Shown: in pieces, positions 8,532 through 59,313 of the stretch
Numbering within the stretch: position 1 is the stretch's first letter
Layout of the letters: each line of letters begins with the position of its first letter
From: Escherichia phage UPEC03
Length of the DNA: 64,000 bases
Sequence record: MW250785
Reading direction: 5' to 3' (one strand)
The notes under the pieces: generated by a model
Told to the model about the DNA's origin: nothing
The model's database searches: none
The model's input: only the letters and a program-made list of their open reading frames with translations
Made by a program: the position numbers and the translations under genes

Positions 8532-8608
8532 GGCCCTTTAGCTTAATTGGTTAGAGCGGGTGACTCATAATCGCGCGGTTGCTGGTTCGAATCCAGCAGG
8601 GGCCACCA
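8532..8608 (+). tRNA. tRNA-Met (anticodon CAU; could also be a lysidine-type Ile)
   Basis: Hand-folded cloverleaf. Acceptor GGCCCTT/AGGGGCC, anticodon loop CTCATAA, T-arm GCTGG-TTCGAAT-CCAGC, encoded CCA. There is one G-G mismatch at the top of the anticodon stem. Confidence 0.85.
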
Positions 8609-8613
8609 AATAC

Positions 8614-8689
8614 GCAGGTGTAGTTCAATTGGTAGAATATCTGGTTTCCATCCAGATTGTTGAGGGTTCGAGTCCCTTCACCTGCTCCA
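8614..8689 (+). tRNA. tRNA-Gly (anticodon UCC)
   Basis: Acceptor GCAGGTG/CACCTGC, anticodon stem TCTGG/CCAGA with loop TTTCCAT, T-arm GAGGG-TTCGAGT-CCCTT, encoded CCA. Confidence 0.9.
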
Positions 8690-56537: not shown

Positions 56538-56576
56538 AATATAACAAAAGCCCCTGCACGAATGCAAGGGCTTTTT
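56538..56576 (-). promoter_or_regulatory. PeSL-type terminator/early-promoter stem-loop (class A)
   Basis: - strand hairpin 56574-56547, -35 TTGCAT (56567-56562), 18 nt spacer, -10 TATATT (56543-56538), leader ..GTCGAAACAAAGGAGG. Confidence 0.65.
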
Positions 56577-57134
56577 TCAAATATTTTTCAACATGTGTAG
56601 TTGAGGCGGACAATCTTTTGAAGCAATCAGGCGATCCAGGCGTGACATAACGCGTCTGTAGCCGTCATACTCGAACTTGATTTTAGGTGCGATGTAATTA
56701 ACATGGATCGCGTTTCGCGTGTTCAGGCTCAATGTATACTCAGGGATAACGGTTCGGAATCGTACAGCAATCACTGGCTTTTCGTGAGCAATAGAATCAT
56801 CCATGTTTTCAAACATCTGGACGGTGAACGCACAGGCAAACACTTTGCCATTGATCCGGCGATATGCAATGACTTCCTGCATACCTTCGTTTTTCGCTTT
56901 CACCGCGTAATGCAGAACGTTACACGAATAATGTTTAGCGAGACTATTAAGAATTTCACTGTAGATCGCAAAGTCTTTTTTGACTGACGCGGAACGATCC
57001 AGGAATCGGTCTGCGATGTGATCTGTAGTCATTGAAACCTTTGTCACATACCAATCACTTAACGCTTTACTGAAATTTTGGTTAACTTCTCTGCGTAAGT
57101 TATTGATAACATACATCAATCGTGCTCTGTTCAT
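56577..57134 (-). CDS. Hypothetical protein (185 aa)
   Basis: Follows the 57B-like gene after a 3-nt gap. Confidence 0.6.
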   Translation of the reverse strand: MNRARLMYVINNLRREVNQNFSKALSDWYVTKVSMTTDHIADRFLDRSASVKKDFAIYSEILNSLAKHYSCNVLHYAVKAKNEGMQEVIAYRRINGKVFACAFTVQMFENMDDSIAHEKPVIAVRFRTVIPEYTLSLNTRNAIHVNYIAPKIKFEYDGYRRVMSRLDRLIASKDCPPQLHMLKNI

Positions 57135-57137
57135 AAA

Positions 57138-57761
57138 TCACCCATTATGTTTGAAGTATTCGATCTGACGCAGACGTTTTTCTGCTGCCTCTTTCGAATC
57201 ATATTCACCAAGTTCTTTCGTGCGATCATGGTTCAGCACAACCCACTTATCGCCGCGATGTTCGATGTGCTCCGTGATGTCTTCAACTTTCTTATCAAGA
57301 TCCAGCGGTTCAGCATCTTCCTCGATAATAGTCAAATCTACGGGCAGTGTCAACAGTCTTTTAACTCCGCTGATATCTTCGATGCGGGAATCATATGCGA
57401 GCGTTACGTGTGGTTTGTAATCGTCATAATCGTATGTTGCTCCAGCATCCATTGCATCTTTGAAGCGGCTATGGAGATAATCAGATTCCAGAACGCCCAC
57501 GATCGTATTACCGTATTTCGTTTCCCACTTCTCCACGTCAACCAGTCGGGCAGGTTCAGAGATACCGGAGGCAGGGAACAGATCAACCGTCTTACGGCTA
57601 TACACAATCGTTGTATGCAGTTTTGCAGCGGAAACAGGATTCTCTACACCCAGAAGTTTTTGCACCTTCGCGAGCGCTTCACAGGAAGCCTGATCGAACT
57701 TCGCACACATATAGATCCCCGGATCAACTACGGGTTTCGCTACTTCAATAAAACTTTTCAT
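57138..57761 (-). CDS. 57B: 2H phosphoesterase, gp57B / Acb1-like, with ~55-aa C-terminal extension
   Basis: 207 aa. Two H-x-T motifs (LHTTIVYS, PHVTLAY). Lies directly downstream of 57A as in T4. The extra C-terminal segment is GDKWVVLNHDRTKELGEYDSKEAAEKRLRQIEYFKH. Confidence 0.6.
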   Translation of the reverse strand: MKSFIEVAKPVVDPGIYMCAKFDQASCEALAKVQKLLGVENPVSAAKLHTTIVYSRKTVDLFPASGISEPARLVDVEKWETKYGNTIVGVLESDYLHSRFKDAMDAGATYDYDDYKPHVTLAYDSRIEDISGVKRLLTLPVDLTIIEEDAEPLDLDKKVEDITEHIEHRGDKWVVLNHDRTKELGEYDSKEAAEKRLRQIEYFKHNG

Positions 57762-57775
57762 GTGTACTCCAAATG

Positions 57776-57795
57776 AAAAAGGGGCTTTCGCCCCC
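57776..57795 (-). terminator. Hairpin with T-run between 57A and 57B-like gene
   Basis: - strand GGGGC-GAAA-GCCCC followed by TTTTT. Confidence 0.6.
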
Positions 57796-57819: not shown

Positions 57820-58086
57820 TTATGCTTTTGATGCATCAATCGCTTCATTATCACCAGCGATTTCTACTGTTGCTGGCAGAAGTGCTTTGATCGCGCCGAT
57901 CAGGGCATCAGGGGATACACCCTGCGAACCGTCGATTTCCAGAAGACCGCAAATCTGGCCTACGAGTTGACGGTGATTTGCCAGTTCTTGTTCTTTACCC
58001 TGAATGATTTCGTTCAGGTCGAATACACGGGCTTTCAGGATCAGGACATCGTTTTGAAGCTGTTGGGTTTGGTTTTGTTCAGTCAT
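57820..58086 (-). CDS. 57A: Tail-fiber assembly chaperone gp57A
   Basis: 88 aa coiled-coil. MTEQNQTQQLQNDVLILKARVFDL resembles T4 gp57A as recalled. Position next to gene 1. Confidence 0.75.
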   Translation of the reverse strand: MTEQNQTQQLQNDVLILKARVFDLNEIIQGKEQELANHRQLVGQICGLLEIDGSQGVSPDALIGAIKALLPATVEIAGDNEAIDASKA

Positions 58087-58089
58087 TGT

Positions 58090-58758
58090 TTACACTCTTA
58101 AAAGATTGAATACATTAAGCACGTTGCGTTTCAAATCGTCTAACGTACCATTATTTAGGATTGTATAATCACTCAAGCCAGGTGTCAAACCTTTCTCCGT
58201 TGAATGATTATCTTCAATACCAGTTTCACGTTCAAGGAACACAAAGCGAGTCCCGAACTTGCTCAGGTATTTATATTCGTGCGGTTGACGCACATCGGTA
58301 ATGATAAAGTGATCCGCGTAGGATTTCAACATTTTTTGAAGCGCAATTGAAGTCCAGATAGACGGATCTACTTTACAAACAATATCAGTCCCGAACACCT
58401 GCATCAAACGGCGAATCGTCCAGGGCTGGGTGTTTTCTTCGCAAATTTTATGAGCGATAACATCTGCGTTACTCATGAAGAACCCGCGAGAACTTAATTT
58501 TTTGATACCGCTAGAAAACAGCGTGTATGCATCGTTATTGGACATCACCAGCGGGGCTTCACGATCACCCTCATAGAATGGGTTCTTCGCTGCCAGCGCT
58601 CGCAATTGCGTGTTATCGTGATGTTCCATAGAACGTTTCAGGATAGCTTTGATTTCGTCGGCTAACGCGATAACTTCAACATTGCGGAAGTTATGCACAA
58701 CCATTTGAGCAACGGTATCTTTACCCGTTCGCTTTTTACCACAAATACCATAAATCAT
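58090..58758 (-). CDS. 1: Deoxynucleoside monophosphate kinase (gp1)
   Basis: 222 aa. GKKRTGKDT P-loop variant, WTIRRLMQVFGTD, ITDVRQPHE and a C-terminal NNGTLDDL block, as in T4 gp1. Confidence 0.85.
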   Translation of the reverse strand: MIYGICGKKRTGKDTVAQMVVHNFRNVEVIALADEIKAILKRSMEHHDNTQLRALAAKNPFYEGDREAPLVMSNNDAYTLFSSGIKKLSSRGFFMSNADVIAHKICEENTQPWTIRRLMQVFGTDIVCKVDPSIWTSIALQKMLKSYADHFIITDVRQPHEYKYLSKFGTRFVFLERETGIEDNHSTEKGLTPGLSDYTILNNGTLDDLKRNVLNVFNLLRV

Positions 58759-59294
58759 TTTTGCGTTTTCCGTGGAGTAGGCACGATCACCCGTCCGTCG
58801 ATCTCAATTTCCATGTGAGCGAAGTTGAACATCGTCATACAGGATACGGCTTCATCCGAATCATTGGTATACATAAGCTCAAGCTCTCCGAGGTTGGAGG
58901 GCCAAGCGCCATAGAAGCGAAATGTCGCTACAGTTTTTGACTGCGAGTTATCCAGGATATGCAAAGCCATTGCCTGTTGTGGTTCACTCCAACGCACGGA
59001 ATCGAAGGTGTTAAAATCGACAGTACCGAGCATCCAAAGGTAAACCCCAAGATACGATCGCAGTTCTTCATCAACAGCAAAACGAATAGTCAGTGGATCG
59101 AACTCCATTGCAGATCCTGGGATCTTCCCTCGAATCATTGGGTTCAGTGGGACATCCGTAATTGGAATGTTGATAGAAGGTAGTGTAACACCCTGAACTT
59201 GTAGTTTCAACCCTTTTACATAATCATTGTCAGGAATATCTAACATGAAGTTAGTAGGTGAAATCTGGTTCAGGATCATAGCAGTTGTATTCAT
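58755..59294 (-). CDS. 3: Tail completion / tube terminator protein gp3
   Basis: 179 aa from ATG 59294 (SD GGAG). gp19-family pattern (MEFDPLTIRF...WPSNLGELEL). ATGA-coupled to gene 1. Confidence 0.65.
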   Translation of the reverse strand: MNTTAMILNQISPTNFMLDIPDNDYVKGLKLQVQGVTLPSINIPITDVPLNPMIRGKIPGSAMEFDPLTIRFAVDEELRSYLGVYLWMLGTVDFNTFDSVRWSEPQQAMALHILDNSQSKTVATFRFYGAWPSNLGELELMYTNDSDEAVSCMTMFNFAHMEIEIDGRVIVPTPRKTQK

Positions 59295-59313
59295 GATGAT
59301 CTCCATTTTATAG

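What the first reader, a model, noticed from the sequence alone, without database searches (positions are those of the whole stretch)
57138..57761. 57B/Acb1-like 2H phosphodiesterase carrying an extra C-terminal module
Two H-x-T motifs (LHTTIVYS, PHVTLAY) and the position immediately downstream of 57A identify the counterpart of T4 gene 57B, the anti-CBASS cyclic-oligonucleotide nuclease Acb1. T4 Acb1 is about 150 aa as I recall. This protein is 207 aa. It has an acidic linker and a ~40-aa tail, GDKWVVLNHDRTKELGEYDSKEAAEKRLRQIEYFKH, that looks like an independent small domain. The extension could alter substrate range, add a sponge or binding function, or mediate localisation.
Basis: partly seen in the sequence, partly recalled or inferred. 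Interest (0 to 1): 0.6.

Follow-up and report, generated by a model that had tools for sequence, protein, structure and literature searches.

The report
Acb1 nuclease fused to orphan phage module
This phage gene encodes the known anti-CBASS nuclease Acb1 joined to a small, strongly conserved extra domain that belongs to a very large family of phage mini-proteins whose function nobody has described.

Summary
Window 57138-57761 (minus strand) is a 207-aa ORF directly downstream of 57A in an RB43/GAP161-like Pseudotevenvirus. Residues 15-158 are a clear Acb1 domain (Pfam E 3.8e-49). Both HxT motifs, E151 and three of the four base-stacking aromatics are kept, but the lid Trp is Lys157. T4 Acb1 is 152 aa, so residues 164-207 are extra. 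They fold on their own as three strands plus a helix. The tail is not a curiosity of this gene. It belongs to phrog_3684, on the fringe of Pfam DUF2188, with 3,879 sequence clusters. Members are mostly free ~50-aa phage proteins, 8 of 9 inspected inside tRNA gene arrays. The module is also fused to portals, prohead proteases, other 2H enzymes and phosphatases. In this clade the tail is more constrained than the nuclease (95% versus 62% identity at saturated synonymous sites). One close relative lost it by a clean in-frame deletion, and a T4-like Acb1 lineage gained it independently. No function is known for the module. My best reading is a canonical cyclic-oligonucleotide nuclease carrying an autonomous binding or tethering handle. 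It is a new variant of a known kind, of moderate interest.

The parts
57138..57761 (-). Whole ORF, 207 aa (stop codon 57138-57140): Acb1/57B orthologue with a C-terminal module
   Evidence: It is 100% identical to the Cronobacter phage leE protein and 94% identical to RB43 gene 57B, which is also 207 aa.
57288..57719 (-). Acb1 2H-phosphodiesterase domain, residues 15-158
   Evidence: Pfam PF23474 E 3.8e-49, profile positions 2-142 of 144. PDB 7t26 E 4.5e-25. The AF2 model has pLDDT 84-97 over this range. Foldseek top hits are 7t27 and 7t26.
57609..57617 (-). First catalytic HxT motif, H49-T50-T51 (T4 H44/T46)
   Evidence: H49 and T51 are invariant in alignment A1. The catalytic tetrad is defined in PMC9117128.
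57402..57410 (-). Second catalytic HxT motif, H118-V119-T120 (T4 H113/T115)
   Evidence: H118 is invariant and T120 is conserved in at least 90% of sequences in A1.
57273..57311 (-). Lid-equivalent segment, residues 151-163 (EPLDLDKKVEDIT). E151 corresponds to T4 E141, and K157 sits at the position of the T4 lid residue W147.
   Evidence: Compared by eye with the T4 sequence EPLKLDWADDLK. The segment is shared with tail-less relatives that end ...LDLDKxxxDIT. The lid function is described in PMC9117128.
57141..57272 (-). C-terminal module, residues 164-207 (EHIEHRGDKWVVLNHDRTKELGEYDSKEAAEKRLRQIEYFKHNG): three strands plus a helix; phrog_3684, DUF2188-like
   Evidence: phrog_3684 E 1.5e-11. AF2 strands at 165-169, 172-176 and 183-187, helix at 190-206. 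The family profile scores E 3.4e-26 here, and this is the only copy in the window. Purifying selection is shown.
57144..57269 (-). Segment (codons 165-206) that three codons (N-E-K) replace in the 90%-identical tail-less relative L009, a net 117-nt in-frame indel
   Evidence: DNA alignment A4. The exact edges are ambiguous by a few bases.
57780..57795 (-). Terminator-like GC hairpin plus T-run between the 57A stop and the acb1 start
   Evidence: Consensus scan and the sequence. This is a pattern match only.
56577..57134 (-). Downstream 185-aa ORF (phrog_7718, unknown function). It starts 3 nt after the acb1 stop and is a constant neighbour of both tailed and tail-less Acb1.
56546..56575 (-). 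Terminator-like hairpin that closes the two-gene acb1 / 185-aa unit
   Evidence: 13-pair stem. This is a pattern match only.
57820..58086 (-). 57A tail-fibre chaperone, the upstream neighbour that anchors the synteny
   Evidence: phrog_1002 E 4.8e-25. T4 gene order.

Best explanation
The gene encodes a two-part protein. Part 1 (residues ~15-163) is an orthologue of T4 gp57B/Acb1. This is a metal-independent 2H phosphodiesterase that opens 3'-5' bonds of CBASS cyclic di- and trinucleotides through an HxT/HxT tetrad, with a short C-terminal lid. Part 2 (residues 164-207) is an autonomous 44-aa module of three strands and a helix. It is attached directly after the lid, with no spacer. It belongs to a very large, uncharacterised phage family (phrog_3684, at the edge of Pfam DUF2188). 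An in-frame gene fusion added it in the common ancestor of the Pseudotevenvirus/Slopekvirus 57B genes. The likely source is a small free-standing gene lying downstream in the same early-gene and tRNA region, as still seen in Yersinia phage TG1. The module has since been kept under stronger constraint than the nuclease itself. Proposed mechanism: the Acb1 domain does the catalysis, and the module is a non-catalytic binding handle that tethers the nuclease to a partner. I think the most likely partner is a nucleic acid (RNA/tRNA or phage DNA) or a virion or early-infection protein. In this reading the module is not part of the substrate pocket. What is shown: domain identity, module autonomy, distribution, selection, and the gain and loss events. 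What is inferred: enzymatic activity (by homology) and the binding role and its ligand (from domain architectures and gene context only).
For: Acb1 identity:
- Pfam 166.6 bits against a 27-bit cut-off; PDB 7t26 E 4.5e-25; Foldseek 7t27 E 7.9e-14, target TM 0.79.
- H49/T51/H118/T120, Y17, W79, Y112 and E151 align with the T4 residues H44/T46/H113/T115, Y12, W74, F107 and E141 that PMC9117128 defines.
- Synteny 3-1-57A-57B.

Module autonomy:
- Modelled alone it gives pLDDT 85.5 as strand-strand-strand-helix.
- Free 51-66-aa homologues exist.
- The same module sits at the N-terminus of a 470-aa head-module protein and at the C-terminus of HExxH proteins P0023 and P0025.
- An exhaustive profile search finds 3,879 clusters at E<=1e-3 and 598 at E<=1e-10. 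Among the newly returned top hits, 33 are free. In the longer proteins there are 34 N-terminal, 25 C-terminal and 60 internal copies, up to three detected per protein in that scan.

Functional constraint:
- Window versus P0007: the nuclease domain is 62% identical (pN 0.273) and the tail 95% identical (pN 0.036), while the tail's synonymous sites are saturated (pS 0.82).

Gain and loss:
- The tailed clade is monophyletic, with the tail-less P0006 nested inside it.
- P0006 differs by a clean 117-nt in-frame indel with conserved flanks.
- P0214 is a T4-like Acb1 (50% identity to T4, 40% to the window). It carries the other sequence subtype of the module at the same 57A-linked locus, so it is an independent fusion.
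- In TG1 a tail-less 57B and a free module gene lie 3.6 kb apart on the same strand.

Binding-handle reading:
- The module is promiscuous. Its partners are portals, prohead proteases/DUF2213, a MuF-like 'DNA pilot', 2H/Acb1, a HAD/PNK-like phosphatase, InPase, a nucleotidyltransferase, cREC and ART-PolyVal.
- Free copies lie inside tRNA arrays in 8 of 9 loci.
- Conserved Lys/Arg and Trp sit on the sheet, and the mean core charge is +2.6.
Against: - The window's own tail does not reach any Pfam threshold.
- The AP2 link fails a profile-profile test (hhalign probability 24%, 16 columns). A DNA- or RNA-binding role is therefore only suggested.
- The tail of this particular protein has net charge 0.
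- Ackermannviridae have the module but no detectable Acb1, and P0006 lost the tail cleanly. The two parts therefore do not depend on each other. The fusion could be a by-product of gene proximity with no functional coupling.
- The module follows the lid directly, so an effect on lid closure cannot be excluded.
- Cyclic-nucleotide cleavage by this protein is inferred, not measured, and the lid aromatic W147 is replaced by K157.
Confidence: 0.55

Rival explanations
1. The module is a virion-delivery handle. It docks the nuclease inside the capsid or onto packaged DNA, so that Acb1 is ejected with the genome and destroys CBASS signals from the first seconds of infection. This is the logic of 'polyvalent' injected proteins.
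For: - The module is fused to portal proteins (PF06381 in 4 proteins, e.g. P0224, and P0171 together with InPase), to prohead proteases/DUF2213, to a 'minor head protein and DNA pilot' family and to major-head-protein families. It often occurs in 2-3 copies.
- It heads a 470-aa protein in the capsid module of Salmonella phage ST44.
- Acb1-like 2H domains are themselves fused to portals, for example the cyanophage Pam3 portal 8hds, residues 482-592, and the large multidomain (polyvalent-type) proteins P0219 and P0187.
- Iyer et al. 2017 predicted that such 2H domains are injected.
- As a lead only: an 'RNA ligase' gene product, at the position expected for 57B by gene numbering, gave 17-18 spectra from CsCl-purified Jiaodavirus virions (PMC13119998).
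Against: - Most family members among the top hits are free 50-aa proteins in early-gene and tRNA regions, not in head modules.
- From general knowledge, T4-type phages target internal proteins by an N-terminal cleaved signal, not by a C-terminal domain.
- Portal fusions need no docking domain.
- No proteomic data exist for RB43-like virions.
- The Jiaodavirus lead concerns a tail-less 57B in a sample that also held about 150 proteins, many of them non-structural.
Confidence: 0.15
2. The fusion is accidental and the two functions are unrelated. A deletion between two neighbouring same-strand genes joined Acb1 to a small protein that keeps doing its own job, whatever free copies do, for example something linked to phage tRNA arrays or another anti-defence activity. 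There is no tethering benefit for the nuclease.
For: - In TG1 the free module gene lies 3.6 kb downstream of a tail-less 57B on the same strand.
- Nearly every phage genome has one module copy (497 records, 498 places). In RB43-like phages the fused copy is the only one found.
- Ackermannviridae carry the module without Acb1.
- P0006 lost the tail and kept an intact Acb1.
- The second fusion (P0214) is at the same locus, so proximity could explain recurrence.
Against: - A 2H domain and the module also share one polypeptide in the large proteins P0219 (GIY-YIG?/HAD + 2H + module) and P0187, which are not T4-like 57B genes.
- The junction has no spacer and lies right after the lid.
- The fusion has been stable across Pseudotevenvirus and Slopekvirus through saturating synonymous divergence.
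Confidence: 0.2
3. The tail is an extended or replacement lid that changes substrate range, for example by admitting larger cyclic oligonucleotides or RNA 2',3'-cyclic-phosphate ends, or by compensating for the lost lid tryptophan.
For: - The module begins immediately after the lid segment, and the lid residue W147 of T4 is K157 here.
- P0214 also lacks the lid Trp and joins the module directly.
- The module carries a nearly invariant aromatic, W173.
- Lid position governs activity in other viral 2H PDEs (preprint 10.1101/2025.08.21.671373).
Against: - Tail-less sister proteins (P0009-P0017) also lack the lid Trp, so its loss is not tied to the tail.
- The same module occurs with dozens of unrelated partners and alone, which is not the behaviour of an active-site element.
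- W173 lies in a strand that packs against the helix in the model and may be a core residue (this is inference).
Confidence: 0.08
4. The tail is a nucleotide-signal sponge or a direct inhibitor of a host defence protein, so the protein carries a second anti-defence activity.
For: - Bacterial DUF2188 proteins, the nearest Pfam family, occur in predicted defence operons with nucleotide cyclases, cNMP-binding TIR proteins and CapH/CapP-like regulators, and beside CBASS and Thoeris loci.
- The P0023/P0025 architecture pairs the module with an HExxH domain. This echoes the DUF2188-metallopeptidase linkage mentioned.
Against: - A 44-aa monomeric module offers little pocket for a cyclic nucleotide.
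- The DUF2188 link is marginal for this sequence.
- The literature statements are gene-context predictions, not experiments.
Confidence: 0.05

Closest known systems
T4 gp57B / Acb1 and Erwinia phage FBB1 Acb1 (Pfam PF23474; PDB 7t26/7t27; Hobbs et al. 2022, PMC9117128)
   Same: It has the same gene position after 57A and the same 2H fold. It keeps the HxT/HxT tetrad, the adenine-contact Glu and three of the four base-stacking aromatics. It is 41% identical to T4 57B over the domain.
   Different: It is 207 aa rather than 152 aa. The lid Trp (T4 W147) is Lys157. A 44-aa folded module follows the lid. Activity is not measured.
Free-standing phrog_3684 mini-proteins, e.g. Shigella phage Ag3 gp184, Aeromonas phage Aeh1 ORF165c, Yersinia phage TG1 gp262
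   Same: They share the GDKW-V...K-LG-(H/Y)-(D)-(S/T)K..A...L..IE..K pattern and are 44-57% identical to the tail. They have the same predicted three-strand-plus-helix fold.
   Different: They are separate 51-66-aa genes, mostly inside tRNA gene arrays. The window tail belongs to the minority 'LGEYD...KRLRQIEYFKH' subtype. That subtype is otherwise seen in siphovirus head-module proteins and in the HExxH proteins.
Pfam DUF2188 (PF09954)
   Same: 32 of 50 module-family members hit the model at E<=1, with a best E of 5.1e-6. A few carry the precomputed assignment. BFVD lists a DUF2188 protein among the structural neighbours.
   Different: The window tail itself gives no DUF2188 hit even at E<=10. 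DUF2188 has no known function either.
Polyvalent and portal-fused 2H phosphoesterases (Iyer et al. 2017, PMC5512222; cyanophage Pam3 portal, PDB 8hds)
   Same: A 2H nuclease is combined with other modules in one phage polypeptide. The same small module occurs in such proteins (P0219, P0187, P0171, P0224).
   Different: This protein has only two parts. It is not fused to a portal or MuF domain, and it sits in the T4-type 57B slot rather than in a head-morphogenesis gene.
AP2/ERF DNA-binding domain (PF00847)
   Different: Profile-profile probability is only 24% over 16 columns. Homology is not established.

Membership tests
Acb1 (PF23474, 2H phosphoesterase) | Profile match above the curated threshold | tested here: met
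   166.6 bits against a 27-bit cut-off, E 3.8e-49, residues 15-158.
Acb1 (PF23474, 2H phosphoesterase) | HxT/HxT catalytic tetrad (T4 H44, T46, H113, T115) | tested here: met
   H49, T51, H118 and T120 are present. H49, T51 and H118 are invariant and T120 nearly so in 22 homologues.
Acb1 (PF23474, 2H phosphoesterase) | Compact 2H fold like the FBB1 Acb1 structure | tested here: met
   AF2 pLDDT 84-97 over the domain. Foldseek 7t27 E 7.9e-14 and 7t26 target TM 0.82.
Acb1 (PF23474, 2H phosphoesterase) | Base-stacking aromatics Y12, W74, F107 and adenine-contact E141 | tested here: met
   Y17, W79, Y112 and E151 sit at the aligned positions.
Acb1 (PF23474, 2H phosphoesterase) | C-terminal lid with stacking Trp (W147) at the end of the protein | tested here: not met
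   The lid segment is present (EPLDLDKKVEDIT), but Lys157 replaces W147 and the chain continues for 44 more residues. Tail-less sister proteins also lack the Trp.
Acb1 (PF23474, 2H phosphoesterase) | Gene immediately downstream of 57A in a T4-like genome | tested here: met
Acb1 (PF23474, 2H phosphoesterase) | [quoted passage not shown] | not testable with these tools
   This needs a biochemical assay or phage genetics.
phrog_3684 module family | Profile match of the tail alone | tested here: met
   E 1.5e-11 for residues 147-207. My own family profile A3 scores E 3.4e-26 on the ORF.
DUF2188 (PF09954) | Profile match above the gathering score (22 bits) | tested here: inconclusive
   The window tail gives no hit at E<=10. 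Ag3 gp184 scores 14.7 bits. 32 of 50 relatives hit at E<=1, best 5.1e-6.
AP2 DNA-binding domain (PF00847) | Profile-level homology | tested here: inconclusive
   5 of 50 relatives hit at E<=1, best 0.0052. PDB WRI1 E 0.0041. hhalign probability is only 24% over 16 columns.
Polyvalent injected proteins (Iyer et al. 2017) | Several disparate domains in one polypeptide, linked to portal/MuF or virion packaging | not tested
   This protein has two domains only. It is not fused to portal or MuF, and virion presence is unknown. Other carriers of the module do fit the definition.

The most novel reading that the evidence does not exclude
The small module may be a previously unrecognised nucleic-acid-binding unit, possibly specific for tRNA or RNA ends. 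Phages would place it free inside their tRNA gene arrays and bolt it onto end-processing enzymes (2H, HAD/PNK-type phosphatase, cREC, nucleotidyltransferase) and onto DNA-associated virion proteins. In RB43-like phages it would then retarget or tether the Acb1 nuclease. Possible targets are cleaved tRNAs or RNA ends with 2',3'-cyclic phosphate, or the incoming genome. On this reading gp57B is more than a free cyclic-oligonucleotide scavenger, and the free mini-proteins are a new class of phage factor tied to tRNA-based counter-defence.
Probability: 0.15. Interest if true: 0.75.

Novelty: new variant of a known kind. Interest (0 to 1): 0.5.

Why it matters
Acb1 is the reference anti-CBASS nuclease, and all structural and biochemical work has used the ~150-aa single-domain form. 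A whole branch of T4-like phages of Klebsiella, Enterobacter, Cronobacter, Citrobacter and E. coli carries a version with a second domain that is more conserved than the enzyme (at least 183 phage records cover at least 80% of this protein). That domain belongs to one of the larger uncharacterised families of phage mini-proteins: 3,879 clusters at 50% identity. The fusion gives a convenient experimental handle on that family. Full-length protein can be compared with a natural-style truncation, and nature has already made the deletion once. If the module proves to be a tether to RNA, DNA or the virion, it would show how phages position signal-degrading enzymes. It would also explain the conserved small ORFs inside phage tRNA arrays. 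If it proves irrelevant to Acb1, the finding reduces to an ordinary gene fusion.

Tried and rejected
1. A word-index homologue search with the 51-aa tail alone returned nothing. The query was too short for the index. The alignment query worked.
It was redone with session proteins.
3. The afdb50 fold library was unavailable, so BFVD was used instead.
4. The tail alone gave only noise against Pfam and PDB sequences: FAM25 E 0.05 and GroEL E 0.6.
5. AP2 homology looked attractive from the shared LGTxDTxEEA motif, but hhalign gave 24% probability. I do not claim it.
7. I considered that the tail might be an annotation or read-through artefact or a decaying remnant. I rejected this because pN is 0.036 at saturated synonymous sites, and because the tail is conserved in many independently sequenced genomes.
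8. I considered separate expression of the tail from the promoter-like site inside the gene (57325-57353). No in-frame start codon precedes the module, so I rejected it.
9. Literature: no paper in the library mentions Acb1 together with RB43. Burroughs & Aravind 2020, cited for DUF2188 in defence, is not held. The polyvalent-protein and jumbo-phage papers do not name this module.
10. Virion proteomics for RB43-like phages was not found. The Jiaodavirus data are only a weak lead.
11. The genomic context of the HExxH+module protein P0023 was uninformative.
Full report
**The object.** Window 57138-57761 holds a 207-aa ORF on the minus strand. On the same strand, just upstream, lie a phrog_1002 tail-fibre chaperone (57A, 57820-58086), a dNMP kinase (gene 1, 58090-58758) and gp3 (58755-59306). 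This is the T4 order 3-1-57A-57B. The region is 98-99% identical to Enterobacter phage phi5, Cronobacter phage GAP161 and related phages. GAP161 and RB43 are classified as Pseudotevenvirus, Straboviridae. RB43's annotated gene 57B is likewise 207 aa and 94% identical.

**The N-terminal part is Acb1.**
- Residues 15-158 match Pfam Acb1 at E 3.8e-49 (166.6 bits, cut-off 27), covering profile positions 2-142 of 144.
- They match the FBB1 Acb1 crystal-structure sequence at E 4.5e-25.
- An AlphaFold2 model (mean pLDDT 85.8) finds 7t27 and 7t26 as top Foldseek hits, at E 7.9e-14 and 2.5e-13.
- Hobbs et al. (PMC9117128) define several key residues: the HxT/HxT tetrad H44/T46/H113/T115, the stacking residues Y12, W74, F107 and W147, the adenine contact E141, and a lid formed by residues 145-152.
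- Aligned to T4 57B (152 aa), the window protein has H49/T51/H118/T120, Y17, W79, Y112 and E151. Most are invariant or nearly so in 22 homologues.
- The lid segment is present as EPLDLDKKVEDIT, but Lys157 stands where T4 has W147. Tail-less sister proteins share that substitution.
- Enzymatic activity is inferred from this conservation, not measured.

**The tail is a separate domain.**
- T4-type Acb1 proteins align only to residues 15-156. Only 183 of 1,650 phage records with a match cover at least 80% of the query.
- Close relatives of 157-177 aa (63-90% identical) stop at ...LDLDKxxxDIT.
- Residues 164-207 give no Pfam or PDB sequence match, but they hit phrog_3684 (unknown function) at E 1.5e-11.
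- In the full-length model, and in a model of the tail alone built on 50 homologues (pLDDT 85.5), the tail forms three short strands and a C-terminal helix.
- Free-standing homologues of 51-66 aa exist in Ackermannviridae (Ag3 gp184, KpS110_105, FKP14) and in T4-like phages of Aeromonas and Yersinia.
- The same module opens a 470-aa protein in the head module of Salmonella phage ST44. It closes two ~197-aa proteins that carry an HExxH motif (P0023, P0025).

**Size and make-up of the family.**
- A profile of tails found 613 proteins in the word-indexed database. Nearly all of the top 120 were 43-66 aa long.
- An exhaustive HMMER search of 1.84 billion cluster representatives found 3,879 clusters at E<=1e-3 and 598 at E<=1e-10.
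- Of the 139 top hits new to the session that I analysed, 33 were free-standing. The 106 longer proteins held 34 N-terminal, 25 C-terminal and 60 internal copies, up to three detected per protein in my scan.
- Structural partner families: phage portals (4 proteins), DUF2213/head-maturation proteases, a 'minor head protein and DNA pilot' family and major-head-protein families.
- Enzymatic partner families: Acb1 (2), 2'-5' RNA ligase-type 2H (3), cytidylyltransferase-like (3), polynucleotide-kinase/HAD-type phosphatase (3), InPase, ART-PolyVal, cREC, lysozyme, kinase and GNAT.
- Several of these are signature domains of the 'polyvalent' injected proteins of Iyer et al. 2017. That paper also noted 2H domains fused to portal and MuF.
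- P0219 combines a HAD motif, a 2H/Acb1-like domain (533-626) and the module (676-717). P0171 is portal + DUF5661 + module + InPase. P0224 is portal + module.

**Family affiliation.**
- 32 of 50 family members hit Pfam DUF2188 at E<=1, with a best E of 5.1e-6. The window tail itself does not hit it.
- DUF2188 has no known function. Papers mention it only as a neighbour or predicted component of defence loci.

**Evolution of the fusion.**
- In a neighbour-joining tree of the nuclease domains, the tailed proteins (Pseudotevenvirus, Slopekvirus and metagenomic relatives) form one clade. Their sisters are tail-less.
- The tail-less P0006 (90% identical) is nested inside the tailed clade. Its locus differs from the window by a clean in-frame 117-nt indel, with conserved flanks and the same downstream gene. 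This indicates secondary loss.
- The tail is under stronger constraint than the enzyme. Between the window and P0007 the nuclease domain is 62% identical (pN 0.273), while the tail is 95% identical (pN 0.036). Synonymous sites in the tail are saturated (pS 0.82), which also rules out recent transfer as the cause.
- A second fusion, P0214 (190 aa), sits after 57A in another T4-like contig. Its nuclease is closer to T4 (50%) than to the window (40%). Its module is of the majority 'LGxH...QLRAIEANK' subtype rather than the window's 'LGEYD...KRLRQIEYFKH' subtype. I read this as an independent fusion.
- Yersinia phage TG1 shows a plausible precursor arrangement. A tail-less 57B and a free module gene lie 3.6 kb apart on the same strand.
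- Phage genomes nearly always carry a single copy (497 records, 498 places). The window contains only the fused one.

**Context of free copies.** In 8 of 9 loci examined, the free gene lies inside a tRNA gene array, often immediately before a tRNA-Gly or tRNA-Asn/Ser. Three of these are metagenomic contigs with 12-22 tRNAs in 6 kb, two of them from contigs of 313 and 350 kb. The lineages are not independent, and I picked large genomes. Even so, the linkage spans Ackermannviridae, two Straboviridae genera and unclassified large phages. Within its 64 kb, the window has only tRNA-Met and tRNA-Gly, 49 kb away.

**Interpretation.**
- Shown: this is an Acb1 orthologue with an added, autonomous, selectively maintained module from a huge uncharacterised phage family.
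- Inferred: the module's promiscuity suggests a binding or tethering unit rather than a piece of the Acb1 pocket. It occurs alone, at either end, internally and in tandem, with structural and enzymatic partners alike.
- The ligand is open. The tRNA-array context, the RNA- and nucleotide-end-processing partners, the conserved Lys/Arg/Trp sheet and the AP2-like topology point to nucleic acid. The portal, protease and pilot fusions point to the virion interior.
- The counter-view is that the fusion is a neutral product of gene proximity with no coupling. The TG1 layout, the module-only Ackermannviridae and the clean loss in P0006 support that view.
- Because the module follows the lid directly, and the lid Trp is missing, an effect on lid closure cannot be excluded. 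However, tail-less sisters lack the Trp too.

**Novelty.** RB43 57B has been public for years, and viral 2H enzymes with extra domains have been noted in general terms (13 of 75 in preprint 10.1101/2025.08.21.671373). I found no paper that mentions Acb1 together with RB43, and none of the papers I read names this module. I rate it a new variant of a known kind. It is moderately interesting in itself. It is more interesting as an entry point to the module family.

Noticed in passing
L001 2947-3144; L002 3019-3210; L006 2426-2620; L007 2468-2629; L008 2468-2626; L019, L020, L022 3001-3159: Free-standing ~50-aa copies of the tail module lie inside tRNA gene arrays in 8 of 9 loci inspected. They are often followed within 1-10 nt by a tRNA (Gly, Asn or Ser). 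Three metagenomic contigs hold 12-22 tRNAs per 6 kb. L021 is the exception.
   Followed up: partly
PDB 8hds_A residues 482-592 (match to window protein residues 28-133): The portal protein of cyanophage Pam3 carries an Acb1-like 2H domain with both HxT motifs near its C-terminus (E 4.9e-4). This is a solved example of a virion-borne Acb1-type domain.
   Followed up: no
P0023 and P0025 (locus L018 6001-6600): These ~197-aa proteins carry an HEATH (HExxH-like) motif in an N-terminal domain with no Pfam match. The same subtype of module as the window tail sits at the C-terminus. They lie directly after a 753-aa ORF in a ~47-kb contig.
   Followed up: partly
window 57780-57795 (-) and 56546-56575 (-): Terminator-like hairpins bracket acb1 and the downstream 185-aa ORF as a two-gene unit. 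The first lies between the 57A stop and the acb1 ribosome-binding site.
   Followed up: no
window 57325-57353 (-): A near-consensus sigma-70-like promoter (TTGACA-17-TATTAT, 11 of 12) lies inside acb1, just upstream of the tail-coding part. No in-frame start codon follows, so it more likely serves the downstream gene, if it is functional at all.
   Followed up: partly
window 56577-57134 (-): A 185-aa protein (phrog_7718, no known function) always sits immediately downstream of this Acb1 type, tailed or not. It occupies the slot that T4 uses for internal protein I.
   Followed up: no
L014 (Klebsiella phage CPRSB) 1501-2136 and neighbouring genes: This record has a frameshifted end of the acb1 tail (...RQIRILQKSVRII), and its gp3 and dNMP kinase genes are split into fragments. 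This probably reflects sequencing or assembly errors rather than biology.
   Followed up: no
L016 2277-2774: In the contig encoding P0004, an HNH_3-type (homing-endonuclease-like) ORF is inserted between the tailed acb1 and the usual downstream gene.
   Followed up: no
PMC13119998, Table 3: In CsCl-purified Jiaodavirus virions, an 'RNA ligase' gene product (gp165/162) gave 17-18 peptide spectra. It is numbered four genes from the gp2 DNA end protector, as expected for 57B. This is a possible hint that tail-less Acb1 co-purifies with virions. The identity of the gene is inferred from numbering only.
   Followed up: no
window 8532-8689 (+): The only tRNA genes in the window are tRNA-Met(cat) and tRNA-Gly(tcc), 5 nt apart. 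No module-like ORF lies next to them.
   Followed up: partly
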